From Deltaproteobacteria bacterium (lineage in GTDB: Bacteria; Bdellovibrionota; FAC87; UBA2466), in the NCBI GenBank assembly GCA_043776735.1, contig JAYVQZ010000109.1, positions 1 through 35,597 of the forward strand: DNA of 35,597 nt. Direction: 5' to 3'. Below the pieces are notes generated by a model. The model was given only the letters and a program-made list of their open reading frames with translations. It ran no database searches and was not told the origin of the DNA. Position numbers and translations under genes: made by a program. Below, piece after piece: positions 9,137 to 24,578 of this stretch (the first letter of the stretch is position 1; the number at the start of each line of letters is the position of its first letter).

Positions 9137-10000
9137 CTAATGGGGAGGACGCGGTAGCATTTTTATCGTCGTCGTATCAATTTTTAACTTCTTCGGGCCG
9201 ACGACCTCTTTCGGAGCGGCACTAAAAAACTTCAATCCCGCTTTTTTCTCCACAGCATCGACGGTGGTTCGGTACTTTCCCCAATTGTTGGCATCCACAG
9301 ACTGGTCATTGGGCATGATCACGGCGATGAGGCGTGTGTTTTCATTCACCCACTCTGTAGGTTGGGATTTTTCATCTCGGTTGGCCACCAAAATGACTTT
9401 AAAAATTTCGTTTGGGACGACCACTTTACCTTTGCCGACGGTATCGGCCGCCCCATGAAGTCCAGTGCCTCCCTGCCCAATGGGGCCGGAGACGATGAAA
9501 AGATCCTTGTGGTCAGTCGTCGCTAGGTCTCGGCTATATATTTCAAGCATTTCCCAGGCGCCGGCATTGTTGACGTGAGTTTGGGGCACGATGTTGGTCG
9601 TAAGGAACGTTGCAAAGCTCATCTCCTGATCGAGAGTGCGATCTCCATGAGGGCACATATGTCCGCGGTCGAATCCCGATCCTGAATAATCCGAATGGGA
9701 AACTTGGTGAAATCCGTGTGGCAAATCCGTGTCCGAATCAAACGATGGTTTTCGAGGCGCATCGCCAAGGTATTCCGAGGAAAGGTGCCAACTCACCCAG
9801 TTTGGTATCCCTTTTTGATCGTTGTAGGAAAGCGCGTAGTAGCGTTTTTCCATCAGGTAATTGGATTTGTTAGTTGCTTCTTTCGTGGCGTTGCTGGGGT
9901 TTCCCATGATCAGTTGCCATTCCTGAGGCGGAAGGCCTGCTTGGGAGAGAGTTGAAAAGACTAGGGTAAGTCCTAGGATTAACGAGCATATATGGTGCAT
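9137..10000 (-). CDS. Secreted DNA/RNA non-specific endonuclease (NucA/Serratia nuclease family)
   Basis: Probable ATG at 10000 with GGGAGA RBS, then a signal peptide. Motifs GNPSNA, NWVSWHL, DYSGSGFDRGHMCP, TFLTTNIVPQ and NAGAWEMLE. Confidence 0.93.
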   Translation of the reverse strand: MHHICSLILGLTLVFSTLSQAGLPPQEWQLIMGNPSNATKEATNKSNYLMEKRYYALSYNDQKGIPNWVSWHLSSEYLGDAPRKPSFDSDTDLPHGFHQVSHSDYSGSGFDRGHMCPHGDRTLDQEMSFATFLTTNIVPQTHVNNAGAWEMLEIYSRDLATTDHKDLFIVSGPIGQGGTGLHGAADTVGKGKVVVPNEIFKVILVANRDEKSQPTEWVNENTRLIAVIMPNDQSVDANNWGKYRTTVDAVEKKAGLKFFSAAPKEVVGPKKLKIDTTTIKMLPRPPH

Positions 10001-10383
10001 GGAAAGTCTCCCGGGGAAGAAAAGTCGACCCAAGGCATCATTGGTGGATTTGCCCGCACCGCACAAGGGGGGAGTTTCCAGCGCGTTTGGTTTTTGGTGC
10101 CAAGTGTTAAGGGCGGTTACGGAAAAGAGTTTTGTCGAGGGAGGCGTCAACCGGACCTTTGCCTTTTTCTGGGACGCGATTCCATTTGATAAAGTTCTTT
10201 TTTTTGGGCCCTCCTGCAATTATCAGCTTGATATGTTTACGCACTGCCAAGGCAGCAGCGCTAATTGCAATGCACAACAAGGTGCGTTGTCCGTTGATCG
10301 TCGAAACACCTTCCGACGTAGTGGTCTTTTCACCTAATTCGACGCTCCAAATCGGCGGAACCTATTTTTTAATGAAAACTTCT

Positions 10384-10412
10384 TTGACGACAGCTGGCCC
10401 TCCCTTCACAAT
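10384..10412 (+). promoter_or_regulatory. Putative sigma70 promoter for the ompA-like / IPT-Kelch / foldase operon
   Basis: TTGACG(10384)-N17-CACAAT(10407), about 75 nt upstream of ATG 10486, which has RBS GGAG at 10477. Confidence 0.45.
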
Positions 10413-10485
10413 AATTTCTTCCAATTAATACCTTCGACAATTTTTTAGCAAAAACAACGCGGTATTTTCAATCGACGGAGTAATT

Positions 10486-11532
10486 ATGAGAAGACTAGGC
10501 TCATTGCTGCTTTTCCTGTCCTTATTCTCAATGATGGGCGTTGCCGATGAACTTACCTTTCATATGCAAGTGCAGTTTGCCGTCAATTCGTCAGTCGTTG
10601 ATGCCAAATATGATGATCAGTTGAAATGGATGGCTCGCTTCATGGAGCGGTATCCTAACTGTAGCGTTGTCGTTCATGGCCACTCCGACAGCTCTGGAAA
10701 TAAGAAAAAAAACCTGGCCTTGTCGTGGGAACGGGCCGGAGCGGTGAGAAAGTTCATTCTGGAAAAATACGGCGTGGCAGCCGAACGCATTGCAGCCGAG
10801 GGTCATGGGGATTCGGTGCCGGGCATTGCGGACAATACCCCGGCTGGGCGTGCGGCGAATCGACGCGTTACGATGGCGGTGGCCAAGGATAAACCGGGCG
10901 CTTTCAAAGGTTTGAAAAAAGATATCGTGCTTTACGATACTCCCGCGGTTGTCTTTGAAGAGGTACCAAGCAAGATAGCCGACGTCGAAAAGCCAGCGTC
11001 AGCACCGGTCAGGGAAGTGGCAAACTTTACTCCGACAAGCACGTCAAAATTTGAAGTGAGCCGAGCTAGAGAACGCTGTCCTTTATTGTCGAAGACCTGC
11101 ATTAATCAATTTGAATTTGGTCTGTTTGCCGCCCATCACTCCGCCCGCACGAGTCAATTTATTTCAGGTTCAGTGGTAAGCCTTTCGCTTGATTGGACGC
11201 CTCAGTGGTATCGATGGGATCGCTTGGCGATCTCTAGTCGGATCGGCGAACTTTTATTGCACGATCAAGACGGAGGGAGCTTCATTGCCCTCGAGACGGG
11301 ACTGCTGTTTGGTTACGATGTAGCGGAGCGATGGACGATTCTCGCAGGACCTCTTTTCGGCTATTGGACGCAATCTGAGGTAAAGGGTTTTAGTCCAGGC
11401 ATTTCCCTCGGAGCACAATGGTTTGTTGGACTCGACGCCGCCTTTCCCAAGGTGGGTGTTGAATACGTTTATTGGTATCAAAATGTGGCCTCCGTGCATC
11501 TGTTTCGGTTTAATCTCGGCGTGGCACTCTAA
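10486..11532 (+). CDS. OmpA-family protein: N-terminal OmpA_C-like peptidoglycan-binding domain and C-terminal predicted beta-barrel
   Basis: Signal peptide, then VQFAVNSS..VVVHGHSDSSG..NLALSWERAGAVR..GHGDS..GRAANRRV. A linker with a Cys pair is followed by about 8 amphipathic strands ending HLFRFNLGVAL. Confidence 0.88.
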   Translation: MRRLGSLLLFLSLFSMMGVADELTFHMQVQFAVNSSVVDAKYDDQLKWMARFMERYPNCSVVVHGHSDSSGNKKKNLALSWERAGAVRKFILEKYGVAAERIAAEGHGDSVPGIADNTPAGRAANRRVTMAVAKDKPGAFKGLKKDIVLYDTPAVVFEEVPSKIADVEKPASAPVREVANFTPTSTSKFEVSRARERCPLLSKTCINQFEFGLFAAHHSARTSQFISGSVVSLSLDWTPQWYRWDRLAISSRIGELLLHDQDGGSFIALETGLLFGYDVAERWTILAGPLFGYWTQSEVKGFSPGISLGAQWFVGLDAAFPKVGVEYVYWYQNVASVHLFRFNLGVAL

Positions 11533-11576
11533 TTTTTGAAAAAGATATATTGGGATTTTAATTTCAGGGGGAAATC

Positions 11577-14500
11577 GTGAATCATCGTGTATTGGCGGGG
11601 TATCTATTAGCTACTTTGGTTCTGAGCGGCTGCGGCAACGGTTTAGCAAAGAGGGCAAGGGCGTTTCTCGGCGTCTATCCAACCATCCGCGAAATATCCC
11701 CGATCGCGGGCGCCATTTCCGGTAAGACCAAGGTAGTCATTACCGGAACCGATTTTTCGGATGACTCTATTGTTCTTTTCAATGAGGTTCCCTGTACCTC
11801 TATTGTCGTGAACTCTCCAACCACGATACATTGTGTCACTCCTGCAAACCCCGCAGGACGAGTTGACCTAAAGCTCGTCACCGGCAAAACCACTTTTCCT
11901 GGAATTAACCTTTATACCTACGAGCCCATTCCCACGGTCGTAACCGTATCCCCGTCCGCTGGAAGTCCGGGCGCCGGAAATAATATCGTCATTACGGGAA
12001 CCGGATTGCTTTCCGCTCAGTCTGTCACCATAGGCGGAAACCTCTGCACGAATTTATCGATCATCAGTGCGACGAAGATCTCATGTACCGTTCCTGCCGG
12101 AGTGTTAGGAACGTTTGATCTTGTGGTGACGAACGATGAAGGTGTTTCCACTACTACGGGAACCTACTCTTATTCTTCAACCGCCTCTATCTCTGCTATC
12201 TCACCGAGCGGCGGTCCGATGTCAGGCGGCACTTTAGTTACGATTACTGGAGATGGCTTCCGGCCTAAAGCCACAGTCAAGGTTGGTGGAATTGTCTGCT
12301 CGACGGTTACCGTGGTGTCGCCTACCTCAATCACCTGCACCGCCGGAGTCTCAGCCAACGAGGGATTTTCTGATGTCGAAGTCACTAACGCGGATCACCA
12401 AACCGCTGTGGGCGCTGGACTCTTTTTCTACGAAGGGGCTCCCACGGTAGCGTCGGTCACCCCTTCGGGCGGCCCGACTGCCGGTGGCACGACCATTACA
12501 CTTACCGGAACTCGATTTCTTACTGCCACGGGAATTACCGTGGGCGGAGTGGCTTGCACTAGCTTGAATATCATTAGCAAGACTTCAATAACTTGCGTTA
12601 CACCAGCTGTCGCGGCCGGGGCTGCGGATATCGCCGTTACTAACGGGGGAGGCCCAGGCATTTTGGCAGGAGCTTTTACCTATGCGCCAAATCCTACGGT
12701 CACGTCTATTAGCCCCGCCTTTGGAGGGATTGCCGGAGGAGCAATTGTTACGATTACTGGAACTAATTTTCAAACTGGCGCCACCGTTACGATTGGCACA
12801 ACGGCTTGTGCTGGATTTAGCGTGGATTCCAATACGCAAATCACTTGCACCACTCCGTCCGGCTCTGCTGGCGTGGTGAGCGCCAAGGTTACAAATCTCG
12901 ATGCGCAAAGCGGGACTGGGGGAAGCTTCACCTATGACGCCGCGCCAACGTTAGGGGCGGTTTCTCCAACCAGCGGCCCCCTTCCTGGGGGTACCACGAT
13001 TACATTGGCTGGCACTGGATTTCTTTCCACGACCGAAGTTCGGATCGGTGGCAACTTGTGCGGCAGCTTAAGTGTTACTAACGACATTTCCCTGACGTGC
13101 GTCACTCCGGCAAGCACCATCGCCGCACCTGTTGGCATTGCGGTGACCAATGCCTCAGGAACTTCGACTTCGGCTGGTGCGTTTACCTACAATCCGCCGC
13201 CTACTATTGCTTCCGGGATCTCTCCCTCGGCTGGCAGCGCGCTGGGCGGCACAGTGATTCGGGTGGCGGGGACTAATTTCGGCGCGGGAACCACAGTTAC
13301 AGTGGGGGGGAATATTTGCACCGGAGTCAGCGTGGTTTCGTCGGCCGTGCTTACCTGTTCTACCTCGGCGCATGCTTCCGGACTAGCTGCTGTGGTCGTT
13401 ACAAATGCGGATGGCCAATCAGCCACTGCAAGCAACAGCTTCACATTTGAAAACAACGCCACGCTCACCTCGATTTCACCCGTCTACGGCAGCCCGAGCG
13501 GCGGTCTCACAGTGACATTGACCGGCACCGGTTTTCTCACCGTATCTCGGGTCACGCTCGGCGGCGCAGAGTGCGGATCTCTTAACTTAGTAAACGCAAC
13601 TACGGTGACTTGCGTAACTCCTTCGCACGCGGCTGGAGTCGTCGACGTCGTGGTCATTAATGGGAACGGCCCCACGACATTATCTCAAGCCTTTACCTAC
13701 GCGGACCCCGCTATTGCGAGCGTGACTCCAGTGGCCGGTACCACTGGGGGAGGAAATACGATCACAATTACCGGTACCGACTTCCGACCAGGAGCCACCG
13801 TGACGGTCGGGGGAATTCCGTGCACTTCAATTACCGTCGTTTCTTCAACCTCGATCACTTGCGTGACCCCGGCGGTTGCTGAAGGGCCTACCACTATTGT
13901 CGTTACCAATGTTTCTGGTGGTTCGGGCACCAAAGCCGCAGCTTTCACGTTTGAAGCCTCACCCACACTGACCGCGGTTTCGCCGAACGTTGGGCCTTTG
14001 GGGGGCGGTACTACAATCACTCTCACCGGCACGCGATTTCTTTCCGTAACAGGAGTCACTGTCGGTGGTAATCCGTGTTCGTCAATCAGCGTGGTTAGTC
14101 CGACAAGTCTTACGTGTATTAGTCCGGCCGGAATTGCCGGAGCCAAAGATGTGGCCGTGACGAACGCCACAGGGATCATCGCCATGATCGGAGCATTCAC
14201 CTACGCTCTACCTCCGACGATATCCAATGTTTCTCCATCCGCAGGCGCTACTGGCGGCGGCACCTTGCTTACCATTACTGGTACGGGCTTTGCGGCAACG
14301 CCTACGGTGACCATCGATGGGTTTGTTTGTGGCTCCCCTTCCTTCATCAATGCCACCCAAGTAACGTGCACCACTCCGGCCCATGTGCCGGGAGCGACAA
14401 CCATTGTCGTGACCAATCCGGACGGCCAGATAGCAACGGGAACCAATCTGATTACGTATGAAGGCGTCCCCACGGTGGGTAGCCTTGCCCCTGCCAACGG

Positions 14501-17500
14501 GCCTAAAAGTGGGGGTACGACAGTCACCCTTACGGGCACCGGATTTTTATCGGCAACTACCGTCCGTATTGGCGGTGTGGTATGCGGCAGCTTGAGTTTG
14601 GTAAGCGCTACAAGCGTTACCTGTGTTACCCCGGTGGGACTCGTATCGGGGGGTGTTGACGTCGCTGTGACTAACGCCGCCGGAAGCGGCAGCCTGATCA
14701 ACGGATTTTCTTACGATGCTCCCCCAAGCCTCACCTCCAATGTATTGCCACTTGCCGGCACTACGGTCGGGAGCACTCGCTTACAGCTAACGGGACTAAA
14801 TTTCGTCAACGGATTGGGAGTCCTTGTCGGCGGCGTTGCTTGTACGTCAATTAATTTCGTTTCCAGCACGAGCATTACTTGCCTCACGCCATCACACGTT
14901 GCTGGTTTGGTCGATATCGTTGTGACAAATCCAGATGGGCAATCGTATACGGCAATTGGCGCCTTTACCTACGAAGGCTCTCCTACCGTATCCGCTATTT
15001 CCCCGTCCTCAGGGCCAGTGGGAGGCGGAAAACTTGTCACGCTTACGGGAACCAATTTTCTCACGGTATCTGGCGTGACCATCGGAGGAAGCACTTGCAC
15101 TGGTTTGATTTCTTTGTCGGCGACAAGCCTACGGTGTTTTACCCCCGCACACGCCGCGGGTACGGTAGATGTGATAGCAACGAACACCACCGGATCTGGC
15201 TCGCTTTTAGCTTCTTATACCTTTTCGGGGGTTCCGACCGTCACCGAGATCTCGCCCAAAGGGGGCGGAATCGGCGGGGGCACTGCCGTTACCCTCAGTG
15301 GAACCAATTTTGTGTCGGGAGCCACGGTAACTATCGGCGGCATTACCTGCACCTCACCTACGGTGGCAACGTCAACGCGGATCACCTGTAGTACGGGCGC
15401 TGTTGCCGCTGGAACGTATGACGTAGTAGTTACCAATCTCGACACTTCAACGGGTACCGGCACGAATTTATTTGTCTATGAGAACGCACCGACTCTGGCC
15501 TCGGTTTCTCCGACCACCGGCGCGACGGCGGGGGGAACGACTCTCTCGCTGACGGGCACCGGCTTTCTTTCCGCCACAGGGGTAACCATTGCCGGAGTGG
15601 CCTGTACTTCGTTAGTAAAAGTGAACGCCGGCAAAGTGACGTGCATTACCCCCGCACACGCGGCAGCCACCGTTGATGTGAACATCGCCAATGAGACGGG
15701 GAATATTACCCTTGCAGCAAGTTTTACTTATGCCAATCCGCCGACAGTAACTTCCGTTTCACCAAGTGCTGGAAAAATCGCTGGAGGCGACGATATTTCT
15801 ATTACCGGGACCAATTACGCCGCCGGAGCTACCGTGGCCATTGGTGGCGTTCCGTGCGGTAATGTCACGGTGGTGTCGCCCACCCAAATAACCTGCACCA
15901 CGTCGGCCACAGCGGCGGGAACGTTATCCATTGTCGTAACAAACACTGATGGCCAAACAGGAACGGGAAACAATCTTTTCACCTATGAAGGCGCCCCCGT
16001 ACTTATATCGATTTCCCCCTCAGGCGGACCGACCGCAGGAGGAAATTCGATCTCATTAAATGGATCCGGGTTTCTCACCGCAACGGGGATAACGGTGGGT
16101 GGAGTGGCTTGTAGCGCGATTGGTTTATCAAGTAGCACAGTAGCCACTTGTGTAGTGCCGACGGCGTTAGCCGGCGCGGCAGATGTGGCGATTACCAATA
16201 CGACGGCCACGGCGACGCTTGTAGGCGCCTACACTTATCGGGCGGCTCCGACCGTCGGATCCGTAGCGCCAGGCAATGGACCCATCGGTGGCGGAACTAC
16301 GATTACCCTAACGGGTACTGGTTTTGTGGCGGGCGCTGCGGTTACCGTGGATGGAAATTCCTGCGCTAACGTCAACGTTACCTCCTCAACTACAATCACC
16401 TGCTTAACGCCTTCGGGAACGGCGGGATTAAAAAGTATCGTTGTCACTAACGCTGACAAGCAATCGGTTACGGGAGCGAATCTTTTTACTTACGTGGGGG
16501 CTCCGACCATTACCACCGTCTCTCCCACGGCTGGACCAGTGGGCGGCGGAACGTCTCTTACCGTGAATGGCACCAATCTTTCCACTACTGTTTTAGTTAA
16601 GGTTGGCGCGATCACGTGCACCGGCTTGGTCGTTGTGGGTCCAACGCAAATCACTTGCAACACGCCGGCCAGCGCTGCCGGTGCCGCGGATGTGGTGCTT
16701 ATCAATTCGGGTGGGACTGCAACTTCTATTGGGGCATATACCTATCGCAACGCTCCTACAGTGGCGTCCGTTTCCCCGTCTAGCGGATCTTCGGCTGGTG
16801 GAACCACACTTACCCTAACCGGAACAAATTTTCTTGCGGGGGCCACAGTCACCGTTGGCGGCAGTGCTTGTACCGCCGTGGCGATCGTCTCTTCGACCTC
16901 AATCACCTGTACCTCTCCAGCGCATGCGGCGGGAGCGGTCAACGTGGTCGTTACTAGTACCGAAGGGCAAACGGGAACCGGTACCAATGCCTATACGTAT
17001 GAAGGAACGCCGACATTGTCGTTGGTCACCCCCAATACAGGATCATTGGCAGGAGGAACGTCGATTACTGTTTCGGGAACTAATTTTCTTTCGGCCACCG
17101 GGGTAACCATAGGAGGCGTAGCTTGTACCTCGCTAAAAATTACGAACGCCGCTTCACTAAGTTGCGTCACTCCAGTGGGCAGCGCCGGAGCAAAAGCTGT
17201 GGCCGTGACTAATCCTTCGGGAACAGGAACCTTGCCTAGCAGTTTCACCTACCAAGCGCCGCCAGTGATTAATACCGTGACACCTACTGCAGGTGCCATA
17301 GCCGGAGGCGATTTAGTAACGATCAGCGGAACTGGATTTTTGGCTGGCGCTACTGTGCTCTTTAACGGTGTCGCGTGCACGGCGGTTACTGTGGTTTCAG
17401 CGACCTCCCTTACTTGCACTACGCCTGCGAACGCGGCTGGCTCGGTCATCATTAAAGTGACGAATACTGATACGCAGTCGGGAATGTTGAACTCTGGATT

Positions 17501-19502
17501 CCGCTACGAAGGCGCTCCAACGCTATCGTCGATCACGCCGGCGTCGGGAAGCATCACCGGAGGCAACACGGTGACTTTGGCGGGAACTCAGTTTGCTACC
17601 GCCACGTCGGTGAGTATTGGGGGTAACGCCTGTACCTCGCTTGTAAAAGTGTCACCGACTTCGCTAACTTGCACCACGCCAGCCAAAGCAGCTGCCAGTT
17701 ATAACGTAGTAGTGACCAATCCTACTGGTAGCGCGACACTTATTAACGGATTCACCTATTATCCTGGACCTACGGTAACAGCCATTAGTCCGACAACGGG
17801 CGGTACGGCTGGAGGTGCGGCGGTAACGGTTACAGGAACAAACTTCCGTGCAGGGGCGACCGTAAAGATCGGATCCGTGGCGTGTGGAACGGTAACGGTA
17901 GTTTCTGCAACGTCTATAACCTGCACGACGGGCGCGGCAGTGGCGGGATCGTACAACGTAGCAGTAACGAACACCGGTGGGGATTTCGCCGAAAGCCCCA
18001 CCAATCTCTTTACCTACGAGGCCGTTCCGACAATCACGACGATCTCACCCAGTTCGGGCTCCGCTCAAGGCGGGCTTAAGATTACGATCACGGGAACTGG
18101 ATTTTTGTCAGCCACCGGTGTGACTATTGGGGGAACCTCCTGTGGCACTTTCGTTCCGATGAGCGCAACCCAAGTGACCTGTGTCACTCCTGCAAAATCA
18201 GGGGGCGCTTACACCGTAGCAGTCACCAATGCCGCTGGTATTGGCTCAAAGGCAAGCGGCTTTTCCTACAACACTTTCGCCGCCCGAGCGTACTATGCCG
18301 CGCATCCCACCGGTGATGGAAGAATCTTCATTTGGGGCGGCATTGCCGGAGGCGCCGCTGCTAACAATGGAGAGATTTATGATCCTGTCACCAATAGCTG
18401 GGCAACGGTAAGTGCGACGAATGCCCCTTCGGCCCGCTACCGGGCAGTTTCAGAGCTCGTAAATGGAAATAAGATTTTCATTTGGGGGGGAACCAATGGT
18501 GCCACGTACCTAAACGATGGCAAGTTGTATAATCCTGCAACCGATACGTGGACGAACGTTTCCGCAACTGGAGCTCCTGCGGCAAGGTCATTGGCTAGAT
18601 CTGTTGTGCATGACGGTAAGTATGTACTCATTGCCGGCGGCGTAGTGGCAAGTAACGCGCTCGTGAGCGGTGCTTCGTTCTATAATGTTGCTGAAGATAC
18701 CTGGATCACTCCCGCTGGTGGCGACAAGGTTAAGGGCTATGGAGCTTCGGCGTTCGTAGCGAACTGTTCCGGTAGCAATAGAAAGCGGGGCAGCAGTTAT
18801 ACCGACGATGATGACCATGAAGACAATTCTGCTTACGCGGTATTTTGGGGCGGGGCTACCTTCTCGCCCAGCTTTTCAACTTTTTCCAATGGCTTTCGTA
18901 CTGCGGTGCCGCCTAAGGCCGCTGAATCATGGGCGGCCTCGGGTTCTACGGCATTCCCTCTGGATAAGAAAAGCACAACTCCGGGATTCATTGACGCGGC
19001 AGTGATTAATCGCTCCCTCACCGAGCCCAAGGTTTGGGGCGGGCAAGATTCAACAACCTTCTCGGGCTCTCTGCAAATGCATACTTACACCTGCGTGGGG
19101 AACGGTCGGGCGATGTGGGCATCGGAGGCCTCAGGAGCGGCGATGGGTAAGTTTCTTCTTCCTCCGGGGCTGCAGGCTATTTTTCAAACCACGGGAAGCA
19201 ATCCCAATTATCAGGAAATGCTTCTCTGGGGCGGCGGCTTTAACAATGCCATTTACTCAAGTGGAGGATTTACTATCACTTCCGTCAATGGCAAGAAGAT
19301 GGACTTCCAGCCTGCGGTATCAACCATTGGCGCGCCGAGCTCTCGTGGCGGCCATGCCATTGTGACCTCGTTTGTCCCTGGTGTCGGCGTTCACGATCGT
19401 AAGTTCTACGTTCTGGGTGGCATTGGTCCGGGTGGTTATGATGCTACGGCAAGTATGTACAATGCTGCGACAAACACCTGGAGTGCTATTGCGACGCCGT
19501 AA
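11577..19502 (+). CDS. Giant lipoprotein with 26 IPT/TIG repeats and a C-terminal Kelch beta-propeller (putative adhesin)
   Basis: GTG start with AGGGGG RBS and lipobox LVLSG-C19. There are 26 repeats of about 84 aa (PTxxxxSPxxGxxxGGTxxTxTGTxF..C-x12-C..VTN..FTY), then seven Kelch-like GG motifs with YxPxTxxW blades. Confidence 0.93.
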   Translation: MNHRVLAGYLLATLVLSGCGNGLAKRARAFLGVYPTIREISPIAGAISGKTKVVITGTDFSDDSIVLFNEVPCTSIVVNSPTTIHCVTPANPAGRVDLKLVTGKTTFPGINLYTYEPIPTVVTVSPSAGSPGAGNNIVITGTGLLSAQSVTIGGNLCTNLSIISATKISCTVPAGVLGTFDLVVTNDEGVSTTTGTYSYSSTASISAISPSGGPMSGGTLVTITGDGFRPKATVKVGGIVCSTVTVVSPTSITCTAGVSANEGFSDVEVTNADHQTAVGAGLFFYEGAPTVASVTPSGGPTAGGTTITLTGTRFLTATGITVGGVACTSLNIISKTSITCVTPAVAAGAADIAVTNGGGPGILAGAFTYAPNPTVTSISPAFGGIAGGAIVTITGTNFQTGATVTIGTTACAGFSVDSNTQITCTTPSGSAGVVSAKVTNLDAQSGTGGSFTYDAAPTLGAVSPTSGPLPGGTTITLAGTGFLSTTEVRIGGNLCGSLSVTNDISLTCVTPASTIAAPVGIAVTNASGTSTSAGAFTYNPPPTIASGISPSAGSALGGTVIRVAGTNFGAGTTVTVGGNICTGVSVVSSAVLTCSTSAHASGLAAVVVTNADGQSATASNSFTFENNATLTSISPVYGSPSGGLTVTLTGTGFLTVSRVTLGGAECGSLNLVNATTVTCVTPSHAAGVVDVVVINGNGPTTLSQAFTYADPAIASVTPVAGTTGGGNTITITGTDFRPGATVTVGGIPCTSITVVSSTSITCVTPAVAEGPTTIVVTNVSGGSGTKAAAFTFEASPTLTAVSPNVGPLGGGTTITLTGTRFLSVTGVTVGGNPCSSISVVSPTSLTCISPAGIAGAKDVAVTNATGIIAMIGAFTYALPPTISNVSPSAGATGGGTLLTITGTGFAATPTVTIDGFVCGSPSFINATQVTCTTPAHVPGATTIVVTNPDGQIATGTNLITYEGVPTVGSLAPANGPKSGGTTVTLTGTGFLSATTVRIGGVVCGSLSLVSATSVTCVTPVGLVSGGVDVAVTNAAGSGSLINGFSYDAPPSLTSNVLPLAGTTVGSTRLQLTGLNFVNGLGVLVGGVACTSINFVSSTSITCLTPSHVAGLVDIVVTNPDGQSYTAIGAFTYEGSPTVSAISPSSGPVGGGKLVTLTGTNFLTVSGVTIGGSTCTGLISLSATSLRCFTPAHAAGTVDVIATNTTGSGSLLASYTFSGVPTVTEISPKGGGIGGGTAVTLSGTNFVSGATVTIGGITCTSPTVATSTRITCSTGAVAAGTYDVVVTNLDTSTGTGTNLFVYENAPTLASVSPTTGATAGGTTLSLTGTGFLSATGVTIAGVACTSLVKVNAGKVTCITPAHAAATVDVNIANETGNITLAASFTYANPPTVTSVSPSAGKIAGGDDISITGTNYAAGATVAIGGVPCGNVTVVSPTQITCTTSATAAGTLSIVVTNTDGQTGTGNNLFTYEGAPVLISISPSGGPTAGGNSISLNGSGFLTATGITVGGVACSAIGLSSSTVATCVVPTALAGAADVAITNTTATATLVGAYTYRAAPTVGSVAPGNGPIGGGTTITLTGTGFVAGAAVTVDGNSCANVNVTSSTTITCLTPSGTAGLKSIVVTNADKQSVTGANLFTYVGAPTITTVSPTAGPVGGGTSLTVNGTNLSTTVLVKVGAITCTGLVVVGPTQITCNTPASAAGAADVVLINSGGTATSIGAYTYRNAPTVASVSPSSGSSAGGTTLTLTGTNFLAGATVTVGGSACTAVAIVSSTSITCTSPAHAAGAVNVVVTSTEGQTGTGTNAYTYEGTPTLSLVTPNTGSLAGGTSITVSGTNFLSATGVTIGGVACTSLKITNAASLSCVTPVGSAGAKAVAVTNPSGTGTLPSSFTYQAPPVINTVTPTAGAIAGGDLVTISGTGFLAGATVLFNGVACTAVTVVSATSLTCTTPANAAGSVIIKVTNTDTQSGMLNSGFRYEGAPTLSSITPASGSITGGNTVTLAGTQFATATSVSIGGNACTSLVKVSPTSLTCTTPAKAAASYNVVVTNPTGSATLINGFTYYPGPTVTAISPTTGGTAGGAAVTVTGTNFRAGATVKIGSVACGTVTVVSATSITCTTGAAVAGSYNVAVTNTGGDFAESPTNLFTYEAVPTITTISPSSGSAQGGLKITITGTGFLSATGVTIGGTSCGTFVPMSATQVTCVTPAKSGGAYTVAVTNAAGIGSKASGFSYNTFAARAYYAAHPTGDGRIFIWGGIAGGAAANNGEIYDPVTNSWATVSATNAPSARYRAVSELVNGNKIFIWGGTNGATYLNDGKLYNPATDTWTNVSATGAPAARSLARSVVHDGKYVLIAGGVVASNALVSGASFYNVAEDTWITPAGGDKVKGYGASAFVANCSGSNRKRGSSYTDDDDHEDNSAYAVFWGGATFSPSFSTFSNGFRTAVPPKAAESWAASGSTAFPLDKKSTTPGFIDAAVINRSLTEPKVWGGQDSTTFSGSLQMHTYTCVGNGRAMWASEASGAAMGKFLLPPGLQAIFQTTGSNPNYQEMLLWGGGFNNAIYSSGGFTITSVNGKKMDFQPAVSTIGAPSSRGGHAIVTSFVPGVGVHDRKFYVLGGIGPGGYDATASMYNAATNTWSAIATP
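11676..18272 (+). repeat. Intragenic array of 26 IPT/TIG units (about 255 bp each)
   Basis: Counted by eye in the translation. Units are diverged at the DNA level and each carries a Cys pair. Confidence 0.88.
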
Positions 19503-19503
19503 A

Positions 19504-20325
19504 ATGTTTTTTTCGGTGGCACTGCTGGGTTTGGTAAGTACGAATTGCACGAGATCGTCTAAAGAGATCGCCAGCGTTGGCTCCTACAAGCTTAATTCGA
19601 GGGAGCTGGAAATGGCGCGAGAGGTGCGCCGTTTGCTAAATCGAAACGACGAAGAATCGAAAGTGGCAGACGAGATCTGCCTTGCCTTTTCGTCAGCTGA
19701 AATTTTGGTTCGTTTTGGTATCCCACTTACGCCTCAAGAGATAAAAGACGAAGCCAAACGCATCGAAAAGGAGTCGGTTCAGCCGGAGCTTTTGAATCAG
19801 GTAAAAAAGATTTTAGGAGACGGAACCTCCGAGTATTTGAAACTTTTTGTCCTTCCCACGCTGGCGCAGCGGCGTCTTCAACGGGACTTCTTCCGATTTT
19901 CTCCCCAGACCCAAGGGGAGATAGGAAAACTTGCCGACACACTTTCAAAAAAAGCAAAGTCGAACAAAAAACCGTTTTCCTCCTGGCCTTCCCGTGAAGG
20001 GGTTACGGTCTCCGCTTTTTACTTAGGACCGTTGGGAGAGGTAACGGACCAAGAGAGTGACATTTCTCTTCCCGCTGGTATCAAGGAAAAAACGGCATTA
20101 GACAGCGAAACGACAGGAAAGTTACAGAGATTGGGAGAGGGCGCCTCGTTGCCCGAAGCTCTTGAATCAGGCGATCAATTTCTCATCTTCCGCCGAATCT
20201 ATAACTTCAAAAAATTCCGTGGGTGGAAAAAGTTTGAAGTTCTCACTGTCTCCAAACGGAAGTGGGAACCGTGGTTAGCCAACCAGTCTTCTACACTTAT
20301 GCGCAGTGGACTTTGTGCCCCGTAA
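19504..20325 (+). CDS. Putative lipoprotein resembling SurA/PrsA foldases (SurA_N-like plus degenerate parvulin)
   Basis: ATG 1 nt after the giant gene stop. Signal ending LVSTN-C (imperfect lipobox), then IASVGSYKLNSRELE, AEILVRFGIPLTPQEIKDEAKRI and GEGASLPEALESGDQFLIFR, which recall foldase consensus segments. Confidence 0.65.
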   Translation: MFFSVALLGLVSTNCTRSSKEIASVGSYKLNSRELEMAREVRRLLNRNDEESKVADEICLAFSSAEILVRFGIPLTPQEIKDEAKRIEKESVQPELLNQVKKILGDGTSEYLKLFVLPTLAQRRLQRDFFRFSPQTQGEIGKLADTLSKKAKSNKKPFSSWPSREGVTVSAFYLGPLGEVTDQESDISLPAGIKEKTALDSETTGKLQRLGEGASLPEALESGDQFLIFRRIYNFKKFRGWKKFEVLTVSKRKWEPWLANQSSTLMRSGLCAP

Positions 20326-20405
20326 GAGGCGCCCCTTTTGTCCTGACATTTCACTGTGCGCTGCGCCCGCGTTGCGGCCAAATAGTAAACGTAATATTAA
20401 GCCCG

Positions 20406-21029
20406 TTAACCTGCGCTATTTTTTACCATCGTAAAAGGAACTACCAACTTACCCGGAGGTCCGGGGAGTAGAAAAATACGATCTTTTTCAATTTCGATAA
20501 GTGGCGTTCCCGGAAAAAGAATCACGTCGATCCAGGGATTGGCAAAAACCCCCACGTGTTCCGCCTCTTGTTCTGGTTTGGTAAGAAAAATTCCAGTCAA
20601 GTCGTGAAAGGCTTCCTTGTACCATTTTGGTGGGTAATCGGACTTCACGTAGGGCGTAGGACCAGCTACCAACCGCCGATATAGATGGAGCGATTCCAAT
20701 ACCTCTTGTGCGTTGAAATGCTGCTTGTCTTGGTACCTACCCGAAATAAAGTGACGAAAAATTTGGCCTGGTGTGGATTGGATCAACGAGAGGTGAGAAG
20801 GAACGCCATAGGTATCTAATCGCAACTTCCCTCCCTGAAACCCTCCTGGATCAGGAGTCTTAAGAGAACCTTGCCGTTCCATTAGTTGGGCGGCGTACCC
20901 TCTTGCCGCCCGCAACAATTCTTCCTCAGTACTTTCCTCGTTTACTAACGTTTTTAGGCAGATTTGGCCAAAAATCGGGGGTGAGCAGAATGTTAAAACC
21001 AGTACTAGCGCTAACAAATTACTTCGCAC
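20406..21029 (-). CDS. Secreted hypothetical protein, possible ADP-ribosyltransferase-like fold
   Basis: GTG start with AGAGGG RBS and a signal peptide. Motif order IFRHFIS ... RLVAG ... TGIFLT ... WIDVIL ... IEIEKDRIFL. The CDS is credible; the fold call is tentative. Confidence 0.7.
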   Translation of the reverse strand: MRSNLLALVLVLTFCSPPIFGQICLKTLVNEESTEEELLRAARGYAAQLMERQGSLKTPDPGGFQGGKLRLDTYGVPSHLSLIQSTPGQIFRHFISGRYQDKQHFNAQEVLESLHLYRRLVAGPTPYVKSDYPPKWYKEAFHDLTGIFLTKPEQEAEHVGVFANPWIDVILFPGTPLIEIEKDRIFLLPGPPGKLVVPFTMVKNSAG

Positions 21030-21586: not shown

Positions 21587-22381
21587 ATGTTTTCCCGTAA
21601 CTTATCCATTTTTGCCATCGTCGGCCTATTATCCTTTCCTTGTTTCGGTGAGTCGGCAGCCTCAAAGAGCGAACAAGCTGACAAGGACGAGGCACGAGCC
21701 GAAGAACGGGCTAATGAAAAGTTTAAGAAGCGCGATGAGGCTCTAAAAAAGCGAGAATCAGAGGTTGGTGATTGGGAAAGCAAATCCCGGGATGAAAAGA
21801 AAAAAACCGATGAGGCCATCAGCGAGGCTTCCCACAAGGTCGATCCCTATAAGATGTCCTTTGGATTTCACGCAGGAATCAACTTTGCCAACGCCAATTT
21901 GGTCCCGACGGTGGCGACGTCAAACAAAGTAGGGCTTACTTTGGGCGCCTTTTTTGAAACTCCAGTAATGCCTGGATTTTTATTTCTTCAGCCAGAATTT
22001 GATTTTGTCCAAAAAGGATCCGAAAACACTCATTTTGGGCCCAATGCGAATGTCCGACTCAACTATCTTGAAATCCCCGTTTTGCTAAAAGCGAAGTTTG
22101 CCCTTCCTAAAATTAAGCCGTTTGTATTGGGCGGTATTACTGCAGGCTATCTGTTGAGTGGGAGTGTCGACGGAGCTCCGGGTGTGACGCTTTCTCGATT
22201 TAAAAGTTTAGAGATTGGTTACGTCTTAGGTGTCGGCTTTAGTTATCTCTTGGGCGACAACCTTAATTCTCCAGAATTTACCCTGGAAGCACGAATGGGT
22301 TCTGGCTTTAGTAATTTAGATTCCGTAGCCGGCGAATGGACCAACCGGAACTTTTCCCTGCTTGCAGGAATCCAGTTTTAA
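21587..22381 (+). CDS. Outer-membrane beta-barrel protein (porin-family / OMP_b-brl_2-like) with N-terminal charged coiled coil
   Basis: AAAGGAG RBS and signal peptide. E/K/D/R-rich segment, then FGFHAGINFAN, FLQPEFDFVQKG, RLNYLEIPVLLK and PFVLGG; terminal beta-signal LLAGIQF. Confidence 0.88.
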   Translation: MFSRNLSIFAIVGLLSFPCFGESAASKSEQADKDEARAEERANEKFKKRDEALKKRESEVGDWESKSRDEKKKTDEAISEASHKVDPYKMSFGFHAGINFANANLVPTVATSNKVGLTLGAFFETPVMPGFLFLQPEFDFVQKGSENTHFGPNANVRLNYLEIPVLLKAKFALPKIKPFVLGGITAGYLLSGSVDGAPGVTLSRFKSLEIGYVLGVGFSYLLGDNLNSPEFTLEARMGSGFSNLDSVAGEWTNRNFSLLAGIQF

Positions 22382-24569: not shown

Positions 24570-24578
24570 TTGGCGTTC

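What the first reader, a model, noticed from the sequence alone, without database searches (positions are those of the whole stretch)
10486..20325. Candidate dedicated surface-display system: inverted OmpA, giant IPT/Kelch lipoprotein and SurA/PrsA-like foldase
Seen: three co-directional genes with gaps of 44 and 1 nt behind one putative promoter. They encode a PG-binding domain plus small beta-barrel, a 2641-aa lipoprotein with a 26-domain Ig-like stalk and propeller tip, and a translationally coupled foldase-like lipoprotein. The giant protein has no autotransporter barrel, RTX repeats, TPS domain or T9SS CTD that I can see. Established: Ig-like domains are about 4 nm each, so an extended stalk (about 100 nm) would exceed the periplasm. 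Inference: it is surface-exposed, the small barrel acts as its wall-anchored export or anchoring partner, and the third gene is its private chaperone. I do not recognise this triad as a named system, and it is the best candidate for a novel one here.
Basis: partly seen in the sequence, partly recalled or inferred. Interest (0 to 1): 0.82.

Follow-up and report, generated by a model that had tools for sequence, protein, structure and literature searches.

The report
Giant TIG–Kelch lipoprotein with partner chaperone
A sediment bacterium encodes a 2641-residue lipid-anchored stalk-and-propeller protein followed directly by a small SurA/PrsA-like lipoprotein predicted to grip its propeller tip; this pair recurs in related genomes, but the proposed three-gene surface-display system does not.

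Summary
The three co-directional genes exist as described, with gaps of 44 and 1 nt. Gene 1 is a permuted OmpA-family protein: an N-terminal peptidoglycan-binding domain, then a small outer-membrane barrel of a lineage-specific family. Gene 2 is a lipoprotein with 26 TIG domains and a C-terminal Kelch propeller. Gene 3 has no Pfam hit itself, but its family and its predicted fold are SurA/PrsA-like.

The triad is not a recurring system. Gene 1 has one full-length homologue among 5.8 billion clusters. No other barrel of its family shares a contig with a Kelch match.

The gene 2–gene 3 pair does recur. Five of 28 gene-3-family loci, in four genera, directly adjoin TIG+Kelch proteins, three of them tightly coupled on the same strand. 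A complex prediction of the Kelch domain with gene 3 scored 0.73, against 0.00 for the best control.

One relative has a canonical-order OmpA-like gene, carrying the same barrel family, overlapping a 4364-residue lipoprotein gene. That keeps a barrel-partner idea alive with only two cases.

Surface exposure and export route are untested. Verdict: a new variant of a known kind (client plus dedicated chaperone or partner), of moderate interest.

The parts
10486..11532 (+). Gene 1: permuted OmpA-family outer-membrane protein, 348 aa, with a cleavable signal peptide (residues 1-20, ending G-V-A before D-E).
   Evidence: ORF and translation. One full-length homologue, P0005, 59% identical.
10576..10863 (+). 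Gene 1 OmpA_C-like peptidoglycan-binding domain (residues 31-126).
   Evidence: Pfam PF00691, E 7.8e-17, 61.9 bits against cut-off 27.2. The NCBIfam OmpA/Pal/MotB-type hits are all below their cut-offs. The D...N-L-x-x-S-x-x-R-A motif is conserved between P0001 and P0005; the role of that motif is recalled.
11104..11529 (+). Gene 1 C-terminal small beta-barrel domain (residues 207-348). It belongs to a lineage-specific family and ends in H-x-x-R-x-x-x-G-x-x-L.
   Evidence: Alignment A5. Its profile finds 59 matches in 30 of 34 family genomes. The Atlas model of a stand-alone member matches OMP_b-brl clusters at TM 0.75-0.85. hhalign gives 91.8% to the N-terminus of a canonical OmpA-like protein. 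The domain has no direct Pfam or PDB sequence hit.
11577..19502 (+). Gene 2: 2641-aa lipoprotein. GTG start behind GGGGGA; lipobox L-S-G-C with Cys19 at 11631-11633.
11679..18269 (+). Array of 26 TIG/IPT domains with an 82-89 aa period, a two-domain super-repeat and two Cys in nearly every domain.
   Evidence: Pfam TIG x26. CoaZ_rpt_PGGG x26. Coordinates. Mean identity is 46-47% at even offsets and 40-41% at odd offsets.
18282..19499 (+). C-terminal Kelch beta-propeller domain (residues about 2236-2641), with a divergent insertion in the middle.
   Evidence: Kelch Pfam families. Alignment A6 with four other gene-3-linked Kelch domains, 29-30% identical.
19504..20325 (+). Gene 3: 273-aa SurA/PrsA-like probable lipoprotein (Cys15), 1 nt after the stop of gene 2.
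   Evidence: Family alignment A1. Six of 15 members hit SurA_N_3. AF2 pLDDT 86.6. The top 14 structural matches are SurA, PrsA, PpiD, PEB4/Cj1289, LIC12922 or other PPIase entries. Complex with the Kelch domain scored 0.73 against 0.00.

Best explanation
Gene 2 is a Sec-exported, N-terminally lipidated giant adhesin-like protein. It has a long stalk of 26 disulfide-capable TIG (Ig-like) domains carrying a Kelch beta-propeller as the distal binding module. Gene 3 is a lineage-restricted SurA/PrsA-type lipoprotein made in step with gene 2 (1-nt gap). I propose that it binds the Kelch domain at its first blade and its C-terminal closing strands, between its own helical chaperone domain and its small alpha/beta domain. 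It would act as a private holdase, folding helper or docking partner for the propeller, the last part to leave the Sec channel.

Gene 1 is a domain-permuted OmpA-family protein: a wall-binding domain followed by an 8-strand-class barrel. It is probably co-transcribed. Most likely it tethers the outer membrane to the wall at the site where the giant lipoprotein is anchored. An export role is not supported.

What is shown: gene structure, domain content, the fold class of gene 3, the barrel class of gene 1 (by transitive homology), and recurrence of the gene 2/gene 3 type of pair.

What is inferred: binding (model only), the chaperone role, co-transcription, surface location, and a stalk length of about 90-100 nm (26 domains at 3.5-4 nm each, a figure from general knowledge).
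For: Fold of gene 3.
- Six of 15 family members hit SurA_N_3 (best E 8.3e-9), 3 of 15 hit SurA_N_2 and 1 of 15 hit Rotamase_2.
- The family profile hits the PrsA parvulin domain 2jzv at E 0.017.
- The AF2 model has pLDDT 86.6 and pTM 0.76.
- VIA-align ranks 1-14 are all SurA, PrsA, PpiD, PEB4/Cj1289, LIC12922 or other PPIase entries, Z 10.2-5.7.

Adjacency.
- The A1 profile finds 28 gene-3-family matches in 16 of 34 family genomes.
- Five of them directly adjoin a protein with both TIG and Kelch domains (Pfam).
- Window: same strand, 1-nt gap.
- G010:C387: 3572 aa with 30 TIG plus Kelch, same strand, 15-nt gap.
- G019:C6: 912 aa, same strand, 4-nt overlap.
- G000:C132 and G016:C70: convergent.
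- In the window's own genome, the only two ORFs that hit both my TIG and Kelch profiles (C109, C132) each have a gene-3 paralogue beside them. There are 3 paralogues, 4 TIG ORFs and 8 Kelch ORFs in all.
- My rough expectation by chance is about 0.003 adjacencies, assuming about 4000 genes (not computed by a tool).

Complex. Kelch domain (A6) with mature gene 3 (A1, residues 17-273) scored 0.73 (runs 0.71, 0.73, 0.74). The best of 3 controls scored 0.00. That mark was reached by 58 of 80 solved complexes and 2 of 110 mismatched pairs. The runs agree in at least 73% of contacts, and the partner's pLDDT is at least 83.

Gene 1. OmpA domain. Barrel family.

Extracytoplasmic state of gene 2. Lipobox, two Cys in nearly every TIG domain, and NCBIfam's 'choice-of-anchor' repeat name. 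The meaning of that name is recalled, not looked up.
Against: - Gene 3 itself has no Pfam or NCBIfam hit and no word-index homologue. It has the longest branch in the family tree (2.34), so its placement is uncertain.
- The tree does not resolve a clade of Kelch-linked members.
- G006:C105, the sister of Kelch-linked G016:C70, lacks the TIG-Kelch neighbour.
- Most TIG-Kelch genes have no gene 3 beside them. For example, G015 has Kelch matches on at least 12 contigs but its single gene-3-family gene is elsewhere, on C39.
- 23 of 28 gene-3-family loci are not next to TIG-Kelch. Seven of the 23 examined adjoin an exosortase-family gene (one of these, G016:C70, also adjoins TIG-Kelch), and three in genus g7 adjoin a small barrel.
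- The family therefore has other or broader clients.
- The complex model docks a folded propeller, whereas a foldase should bind unfolded chains.
- My own shallow alignments were used, so the calibration of that score holds only roughly.
- Foldseek gave no match at E<=0.001. Whole-chain rmsd values are large (14-19 A), and the tool warns that Z under 8 can be a common arrangement.
- No PPIase family hit on gene 3.
- The gene 1-gene 2 link is unique to this window.
- There are no data on expression or localisation.
Confidence: 0.55

Rival explanations
1. One reading: all three genes form one dedicated surface-display system. The gene 1 barrel, tied to the wall, would export or anchor the giant lipoprotein across the outer membrane, and gene 3 would be its chaperone.
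For: - The block of three co-directional genes is bounded by opposite-strand genes, with a 44-nt AT-rich gap and no terminator-like hairpin listed in it.
- A second case exists in G015:C16. A 352-aa OmpA-family protein has the same barrel family at residues 40-139 (hhalign 91.8%, E 7.5e-7) and OmpA at 222-319. It overlaps by 4 nt the start of a 4364-aa lipoprotein with GLUG motifs.
- In G010:C387 the 3572-aa TIG-Kelch lipoprotein is preceded by P0039, a secreted 336-aa protein with a beta-rich C-terminal half.
- No Slam (SlipAM) match was found in this 90.5%-complete genome, but the control rang nowhere, so this is inconclusive.
Against: - The triad was found nowhere else. Gene 1 has one homologue among 5.8 billion clusters, on a 3.2-kb contig that I could not fetch.
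- Scans for gene 1 relatives found none.
- Of 59 barrel-family matches, none but the window's lies on a contig with a listed Kelch match.
- P0039 is unrelated to gene 1.
- The other four gene-3-linked TIG-Kelch genes have no OmpA-like gene upstream.
- The barrel is of the about 140-aa OMP_b-brl/OmpA_membrane class. By general knowledge this class has no lumen for a polypeptide.
- The known lipoprotein exporters named in a 2026 review are Slam/T11SS, T2SS and T5SS (passages read, PMC13721041).
Confidence: 0.13
2. The genes are ordinary neighbours. Gene 1 would be a general OmpA-like envelope tether and gene 3 a general periplasmic chaperone paralogue, serving, for example, small outer-membrane barrels. 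Neither would have a specific tie to gene 2.
For: - The gene-3 family has 1-5 paralogues per genome in varied contexts.
- In genus g7 it sits beside small barrels of the gene 1 C-terminal family (G018:C42, G009:C2, G028:C81). SurA's classical clients are barrels (recalled).
- Most TIG-Kelch genes lack a gene-3 neighbour.
- The barrel family is widespread and mostly stand-alone.
Against: - There are five direct adjacencies to TIG+Kelch proteins in four genera, three with gaps or overlaps of 15 nt or less.
- Both TIG+Kelch genes of this genome have one beside them.
- The complex prediction passed with controls at 0.00.
Confidence: 0.2
3. The gene-3 family is an accessory of an exosortase-like sorting pathway. 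It would present the C-terminal end of TIG-Kelch (and other) surface proteins to a membrane transpeptidase for attachment. The window's copy would be a paralogue that moved next to its cargo.
For: - An exosortase/archaeosortase-family protein (TIGR04178: 42 and 33.7 bits, cut-off 23) lies within two genes of a gene-3-family gene in 7 of 23 examined loci, across three genera (tblastn).
- In G016:C70 the TIG-Kelch gene, gene 3 and the exosortase-like gene are contiguous.
- The predicted interface includes the last residues of gene 2 (chain residues 407 and 409-410 of 412).
- Gene 2's repeats carry NCBIfam's 'choice-of-anchor' label.
Against: - Gene 2 and the other linked proteins end in a Kelch blade, with no hydrophobic helix or basic tail of the PEP-CTERM type (the motif definition is recalled).
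- No exosortase-like gene was found in the window, L036 or L037.
- Gene 2 already has an N-terminal lipid anchor.
- Only two of the seven exosortase-like neighbours were checked against NCBIfam.
Confidence: 0.1

Closest known systems
PrsA, SurA, PpiD, PEB4/Cj1289 and LIC12922 periplasmic or lipoprotein chaperones
   Same: Gene 3's model has an N-terminal helical chaperone domain, a small alpha/beta domain and a C-terminal helix packing back. The top 14 structural matches are these proteins or related PPIase entries. Six of 15 family members hit SurA_N_3. Like PrsA, it is lipid-anchored; PrsA is described as a lipoprotein PPIase foldase in PMC13721041 (passages read).
   Different: Gene 3 itself matches no Pfam family. 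No parvulin catalytic domain is recognised: Rotamase_2 hits 1 of 15 members at E 0.032. The family is almost confined to one bacterial family (14 of 32 genomes there, against 5 of 168 elsewhere in the phylum). It is genetically coupled to a specific class of client, and it is predicted to bind a folded propeller.
OmpA/OprF-type proteins (N-terminal 8-strand barrel plus C-terminal OmpA_C wall-binding domain)
   Same: Both modules are present in gene 1. A relative, G015:C16, has the same barrel family in the canonical order.
   Different: The order is inverted: the wall-binding domain comes first and the barrel last. About 70 residues separate them, including a Pro/Ala-rich stretch and a conserved C-x6-C. 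The barrel belongs to an unannotated lineage-specific family. Only two sequences with this architecture were found.
Inverse autotransporters (type Ve: intimin, invasin)
   Same: The overall parts list is shared: a wall-binding module, an outer-membrane barrel, a stalk of Ig-like domains and a distal binding domain. The topology is described in PMC13721041 (passages read); the LysM and lectin details are recalled.
   Different: Here the barrel and the stalk are separate genes, divided by a stop codon and 44 nt. The stalk protein has its own signal peptide and lipid anchor. The barrel is of the small OMP_b-brl class, not the 12-strand translocator. No homology was detected.
Slam / type 11 secretion of surface lipoproteins
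   Same: The concept matches: an outer-membrane barrel with a periplasmic domain is encoded next to the lipoprotein it puts on the surface (PMC13721041, passages read).
   Different: No SlipAM (PF04575) match was found in the genome, though the control was silent, so this is inconclusive. Gene 1's barrel is about 140 aa and its periplasmic part is an OmpA domain, not TPR (the TPR detail is recalled).
Giant repeat adhesins with a co-encoded small outer-membrane partner (SprB/SprF of gliding Bacteroidota; Lig lipoproteins of Leptospira). Recalled; not checked in any call.
   Same: A very long repeat-domain surface protein, lipid-anchored in the Lig case or paired with a small barrel gene in the SprB/SprF case.
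   Different: Different domains and secretion signals. No T9SS CTD was seen in gene 2. No homology was tested.

Membership tests
OmpA family (PF00691 peptidoglycan-binding domain) | Match to the OmpA_C-like domain above Pfam's gathering score. | tested here: met
   Gene 1 residues 31-126, 61.9 bits against 27.2.
OmpA/OprF-type two-domain outer-membrane proteins | A small outer-membrane beta-barrel in the same chain. | tested here: met
   Met by transitive evidence only. Profile A5 links gene 1 residues 207-348 to stand-alone members. The Atlas model of one member matches OMP_b-brl/OmpA_membrane clusters at TM 0.75-0.85. Gene 1's own single-sequence model failed, pLDDT 36.7. A crude strand-amphipathicity test was not significant.
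OmpA/OprF-type two-domain outer-membrane proteins | Canonical order: barrel N-terminal, wall-binding domain C-terminal. | tested here: not met
   In gene 1 the OmpA domain is at 31-126 and the barrel at 207-348.
SurA/PrsA/PpiD chaperones | SurA_N-type chaperone domain recognised by sequence. | tested here: inconclusive
   Gene 3 has no hit at E<=0.01. Six of 15 aligned family members hit SurA_N_3, best E 8.3e-9.
SurA/PrsA/PpiD chaperones | Fold of the chaperone module. | tested here: met
   Model pLDDT 86.6. VIA-align ranks 1-14 are SurA, PrsA, PpiD, PEB4/Cj1289, LIC12922 or other PPIase entries, Z 10.2-5.7. Foldseek E-values are only 2.4e-3 and weaker.
SurA/PrsA/PpiD chaperones | Parvulin PPIase domain with catalytic residues. 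| tested here: inconclusive
   Rotamase_2 hits 1 of 15 members at E 0.032. The profile matches the PrsA parvulin 2jzv at E 0.017 in two short stretches. Catalytic residues were not examined.
Bacterial lipoproteins | Signal peptide ending in a lipobox with an invariant Cys. | tested here: met
   Read from the sequence. Gene 2 has L-S-G-C at residue 19. Gene 3 has S-T-N-C at residue 15, with an atypical -1 residue; the Cys aligns with G/S-C lipoboxes in 8 of 14 relatives. No dedicated predictor was run.
NCBIfam NF058597, CoaZ_rpt_PGGG (choice-of-anchor Z repeat) | Score above the curated cut-off. | tested here: met
   596.9 bits against 30, in 26 stretches.
Slam / T11SS | SlipAM (PF04575) barrel encoded in the genome or locus. 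| tested here: inconclusive
   No match in G000, which is 90.5% complete. The family rang in none of the 14 control genomes.
Type Ve inverse autotransporter | Barrel and Ig-like passenger in one polypeptide. | tested here: not met
   A stop codon at 11530-11532 and a 44-nt gap separate the genes, and gene 2 has its own signal peptide.
Exosortase / PEP-CTERM-type sorting | A C-terminal sorting signal on the cargo and an exosortase gene nearby. | tested here: not met
   Gene 2 ends in a Kelch blade (...A-I-A-T-P) with no hydrophobic tail. No exosortase-like match was found in the window. The motif definition is recalled.

The most novel reading that the evidence does not exclude
In this bacterial family, giant surface lipoproteins are installed by a previously undescribed modular route. 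A small OmpA-class barrel with a wall-binding domain, in either domain order, would be co-translated with the giant lipoprotein and serve as its outer-membrane docking or export partner. A SurA-like lipoprotein would clamp the closing seam of the distal propeller and hand it to the envelope machinery, possibly an exosortase-like enzyme. This would amount to a 'split inverse autotransporter' built from a lipoprotein, a barrel and a private chaperone.
Probability: 0.1. Interest if true: 0.8.

Novelty: new variant of a known kind. Interest (0 to 1): 0.45.

Why it matters
How most surface lipoproteins cross or settle in the outer membrane is still an open question. A 2026 review says so in its summary (PMC13721041, passages read).

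This locus does not answer that question, but it offers three concrete handles:
- a lineage-specific SurA/PrsA-like lipoprotein that is genetically coupled to TIG-Kelch giant lipoproteins and predicted to grip their propeller;
- a rare permuted OmpA architecture built on an unannotated small-barrel family;
- a recurring link of the chaperone family to exosortase-like genes.

If binding is confirmed, it would be an example of a private periplasmic chaperone or partner for a beta-propeller-tipped adhesin. It would also give a simple pair (Kelch domain plus a 27-kDa lipoprotein) that can be tested in vitro without cultivating the organism.

Tried and rejected
Attempts that led nowhere.
- Single-sequence AF2 of gene 1 gave pLDDT 36.7 and was unusable.
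- A strand-amphipathicity count on the gene 1 C-terminus gave 7 windows against 6.3 +/- 4.8 in shuffles. It neither supports nor opposes a barrel.
- phmmer of the gene 1 C-terminus against 1.84 billion representatives found only itself plus four long repetitive proteins at E 2.7e-9 to 6.9e-4. I took these as compositional.
- Profile A5 against PDB sequences gave only lamin tails at E>=0.69.
- Pfam on the A4 members gave nothing but the known OmpA domain.
- P0039, upstream of the G010 giant gene, was tested as a gene 1 analogue. BLASTP gave E 1.4 and hhalign 0.6%, so it was rejected as a homologue.
- The gene 2 Kelch domain has no orthologue in the 33 other family genomes; the best match was partial, at E 8.8e-22. 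In the large protein database only generic giant Kelch proteins of many phyla appeared.
- Promoter and terminator scans were not above shuffles.
- The gene-3 family tree had an unresolved backbone, so it gives no inference on one or several origins of the Kelch link.
- The PMT_2 thread: a glycosyltransferase lies at 24570-26045, and a weak PMT_2-like neighbour of a gene-3 homologue lies in L015 (25.2 bits against 26.1). The two are not similar by BLASTP, so I dropped it.
- No RNA holder was listed for the stretch, so nothing can be said on expression.
- Literature searches found no paper on a TIG-Kelch lipoprotein with a SurA-like partner, nor on 'choice-of-anchor Z'. This absence rests on those three searches only.
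- I did not determine the organism's taxonomy.
- Five of the 28 gene-3-family matches were not fetched: G009:C2, G025:C172, G028:C218, G028:C81 and G022:C43, all in genus g7. That genus had 0 of 5 genomes with a Kelch match at E<=1e-10. The TIG listing is truncated (330 matches not shown), so TIG neighbours there are not excluded.
- Paper supplements were closed and were not needed.

Full report
**1. Observation**

The window holds three co-directional ORFs:
- 10486-11532 (348 aa);
- 11577-19502 (2641 aa, GTG start behind a GGGGGA Shine-Dalgarno-like run);
- a third ORF whose longest frame starts at 19372.

The signal peptide of the third ORF, and its alignment with relatives, place its start at ATG 19504. 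The gaps are then 44 nt and 1 nt.

The neighbours on both sides are on the opposite strand: Endonuclease_NS at 9137-10219, and an unassigned 207-aa ORF at 20406-21029. The block therefore looks like a three-gene unit.

The promoter-like site at 10384-10415 and the weak terminator-like site at 20315-20332 are no more than shuffled sequence gives.

The window is contig C109 of a 4.1-Mb, 539-contig genome that is 90.5% complete. Contigs from four sediment-metagenome runs of one study cover 10400-20399 without joints or indels. Pieces bridge both junctions, though two of the runs may be the source sample. The TIG repeats are old: 27-61% identical in protein, with DNA repeats of only 38-42 nt. A repeat mis-assembly is therefore unlikely.

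**2. Gene 2**

Pfam finds 26 TIG domains and several Kelch families from residue about 2236 onward. All ten families listed are TIG or Kelch types. NCBIfam labels the repeats CoaZ_rpt_PGGG, 'choice-of-anchor Z', 26 times.

The N-terminus has a basic n-region, a hydrophobic core and L-S-G-C. The domains have an 82-89 aa period and form a two-domain super-repeat: 46-47% mean identity at even offsets against 40-41% at odd offsets. Nearly every domain carries two Cys. This is consistent with a disulfide-bonded extracytoplasmic stalk.

Nothing here tests it.

No orthologue of the Kelch domain exists in the 33 other genomes of the bacterial family. Giant Kelch proteins as a class are common in many phyla.

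**3. Gene 3**

Gene 3 has no Pfam or NCBIfam hit, and no relative was found by the word-index search. Searching relatives' genomes found homologues in 14 of 33 genomes of the same family and 0 of 27 outside it.

Evidence from an alignment of 15 members (A1):
- six members hit SurA_N_3 (best E 8.3e-9), three hit SurA_N_2 and one hit Rotamase_2;
- the profile touches the PrsA parvulin domain 2jzv at E 0.017;
- AF2 gave pLDDT 86.6;
- Foldseek's top rows are LIC12922, PpiD, PrsA, a PPIase complex (8hm3), PEB4/Cj1289 and, further down, SurA, but only at E 2.4e-3 or weaker;
- VIA-align puts SurA, PrsA, PpiD, PEB4/Cj1289, LIC12922 or other PPIase entries in ranks 1-14, Z 10.2-5.7.

PPIase activity is open.

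With the profile, the family has 28 matches in 16 of 34 family genomes. Outside that family it occurs in only 5 of 168 genomes sampled from the phylum.

**4. The gene 2-gene 3 link recurs**

Five of the 28 loci directly adjoin a protein with both TIG and Kelch domains:

| Locus | TIG-Kelch protein | Arrangement with the gene-3 homologue |
|---|---|---|
| Window (C109) | 2641 aa, 26 TIG | same strand, 1-nt gap |
| G010:C387 | 3572-aa lipoprotein, 30 TIG | same strand, 15 nt downstream |
| G019:C6 | 912-aa lipoprotein, 6 TIG | same strand, 4-nt overlap |
| G000:C132 | at least 1192 aa | convergent |
| G016:C70 | 1552 aa | convergent |

In the window's own genome, my profiles find 3 gene-3 paralogues, 4 TIG ORFs and 8 Kelch ORFs. 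The only two ORFs with both TIG and Kelch each have a paralogue beside them. I estimate about 0.003 such adjacencies by chance; this is my arithmetic and assumes about 4000 genes.

A complex prediction used the Kelch domain (A6, five rows) and mature gene 3 (A1). It scored 0.73, with the best of three controls at 0.00. That mark was reached by 58 of 80 solved complexes and 2 of 110 mismatched pairs. The runs agree in at least 73% of contacts, and the partner's pLDDT is at least 83.

The interface joins the first Kelch blade (the D-P-V-T-N-S-W loop) and the last residues of the protein to two parts of gene 3. These are the helices at 86-100 and 119-127, and the alpha/beta domain. The model supports binding; it does not show it. 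My own alignments were used, so the calibration holds only roughly.

**5. Limits of that link**

- Most TIG-Kelch genes of the family have no gene-3 neighbour. G015, for example, has Kelch matches on at least 12 contigs and one gene-3 gene elsewhere.
- G006:C105, the sister of G016:C70, lacks the neighbour.
- The tree backbone is unresolved, and the window's copy is the longest branch.
- The family also sits beside other genes.
- Seven of the 23 examined loci adjoin an exosortase/archaeosortase-family membrane protein (TIGR04178 confirmed on two). One of the seven is G016:C70, where it is contiguous with the TIG-Kelch gene.
- In three genomes of genus g7 the neighbour is a small barrel of the gene 1 C-terminal family.
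- Gene 3 is thus one paralogue of an envelope-biogenesis chaperone family that has several kinds of partner.

**6. Gene 1**

The OmpA domain is N-terminal, at residues 31-126. The C-terminal 140 residues are an orphan by direct search. Weak hits in relatives allowed a profile (A5). That profile finds 59 matches in 30 of 34 family genomes; five of the matches were its own seeds.

Many of the matches are stand-alone secreted ORFs of 155-230 aa ending in H-x-x-R-x-G-x-G-x-x-F. One such member is in the ESM Atlas. Its model (pTM 0.71) matches OMP_b-brl, Opacity and OmpA_membrane clusters at TM 0.75-0.85.

In G015:C16 the same barrel family lies N-terminal to an OmpA domain, the canonical order.

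The architecture is very rare. There is one full-length homologue (59% identity) among 5.8 billion clusters. Targeted scans of genome and metagenome contigs found none.

**7. Is there a triad?**

No other locus was found with all three parts. None of the other 58 barrel-family matches lies on a contig with a listed Kelch match.

Two observations keep a weaker 'barrel partner' idea alive:
- The G015:C16 OmpA-like gene overlaps by 4 nt the start of a 4364-aa GLUG-motif lipoprotein.
- The G010 giant gene is preceded by an unrelated secreted protein with a beta-rich C-terminal half.

A barrel of the OMP_b-brl class is unlikely to conduct a polypeptide (general knowledge). The known routes for surface lipoproteins are Slam/T11SS, T2SS and T5SS (PMC13721041, passages read). 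SlipAM was not found in this genome, but the control was silent.

**8. Verdict**

The best reading is a giant lipid-anchored TIG-Kelch adhesin-like protein with a translationally coupled SurA/PrsA-like lipoprotein that binds its propeller. A permuted OmpA-family tether lies upstream, and its tie to the other two is unproven.

This is a new variant of a known kind (client plus private chaperone or partner), not a new named system. Interest is moderate. The exosortase link and the second OmpA-like/giant-lipoprotein pair are the leads most worth following.

Noticed in passing
L045:11347-12306 (G000:C318), L014:3615-4556 (G016:C70), and L023, L021, L025, L019, L017: A polytopic membrane protein of about 315-335 aa, of the exosortase/archaeosortase family, lies within two genes of gene-3-family genes. 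NCBIfam TIGR04178 scores 42 and 33.7 bits against a cut-off of 23. This holds in 7 of 23 examined loci across three genera. In G016:C70 it is contiguous with the TIG-Kelch gene and the chaperone gene.
   Followed up: partly
L062:5678-19827 (G015:C16): A canonical-order OmpA-family protein of 352 aa overlaps by 4 nt the start of a 4364-aa lipoprotein with GLUG motifs and an M26-N-like region. It has the gene 1 type of barrel at residues 40-139 and OmpA at 222-319. This is a second 'OmpA-like, then giant lipoprotein' pair.
   Followed up: partly
G018:C42:8835-10313; G009:C2:63704-65180; G028:C81:5-915: In genus g7, a stand-alone barrel of the gene 1 C-terminal family (open frames of 188-228 aa) lies divergently next to a gene-3-family gene. 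No Kelch match was found in those genomes at E<=1e-10.
   Followed up: partly
L036:11618-12628 (G010:C387): P0039 is a secreted 336-aa protein with a helical N-half and a beta-rich C-half. It lies directly upstream of the 3572-aa TIG-Kelch lipoprotein. It has no Pfam or NCBIfam hit and is unrelated to gene 1.
   Followed up: partly
window 11679-18269: The 26 TIG domains alternate between two types, forming a two-domain super-repeat. Nearly every domain keeps two Cys.
   Followed up: yes
window 24570-26045: A PMT_2-type (GT-C) glycosyltransferase lies 4 kb downstream of gene 3. A weak PMT_2-like protein adjoins a gene-3 homologue in L015:3811-5274. The two are not similar by BLASTP. I recall, without checking, that eukaryotic IPT domains are O-mannosylated by a related enzyme class.
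   Followed up: partly
window 21587-22381 and 22424-24358: An OMP_b-brl_2 outer-membrane protein that ends in a terminal Phe, and a 644-aa unassigned protein with a signal peptide and hydrophobic segments, lie just downstream on opposite strands.
   Followed up: no
G000 contigs C8, C98, C416, C132, C109: Kelch-ended proteins of this genome mostly end in (Y/L/A)-x-P, and many have lipoboxes. The organism carries a large repertoire of Kelch or TIG lipoproteins.
   Followed up: partly
L038:3300-6746 (G016:C44): An HTTM/DCC1-like membrane protein and an M14 carboxypeptidase lie between a gene-3-family gene and a 3306-residue ORF on whose contig Kelch matches fall (its locus copy reads X at the C-terminal end); a second gene-3-family match lies just upstream.
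   Followed up: no
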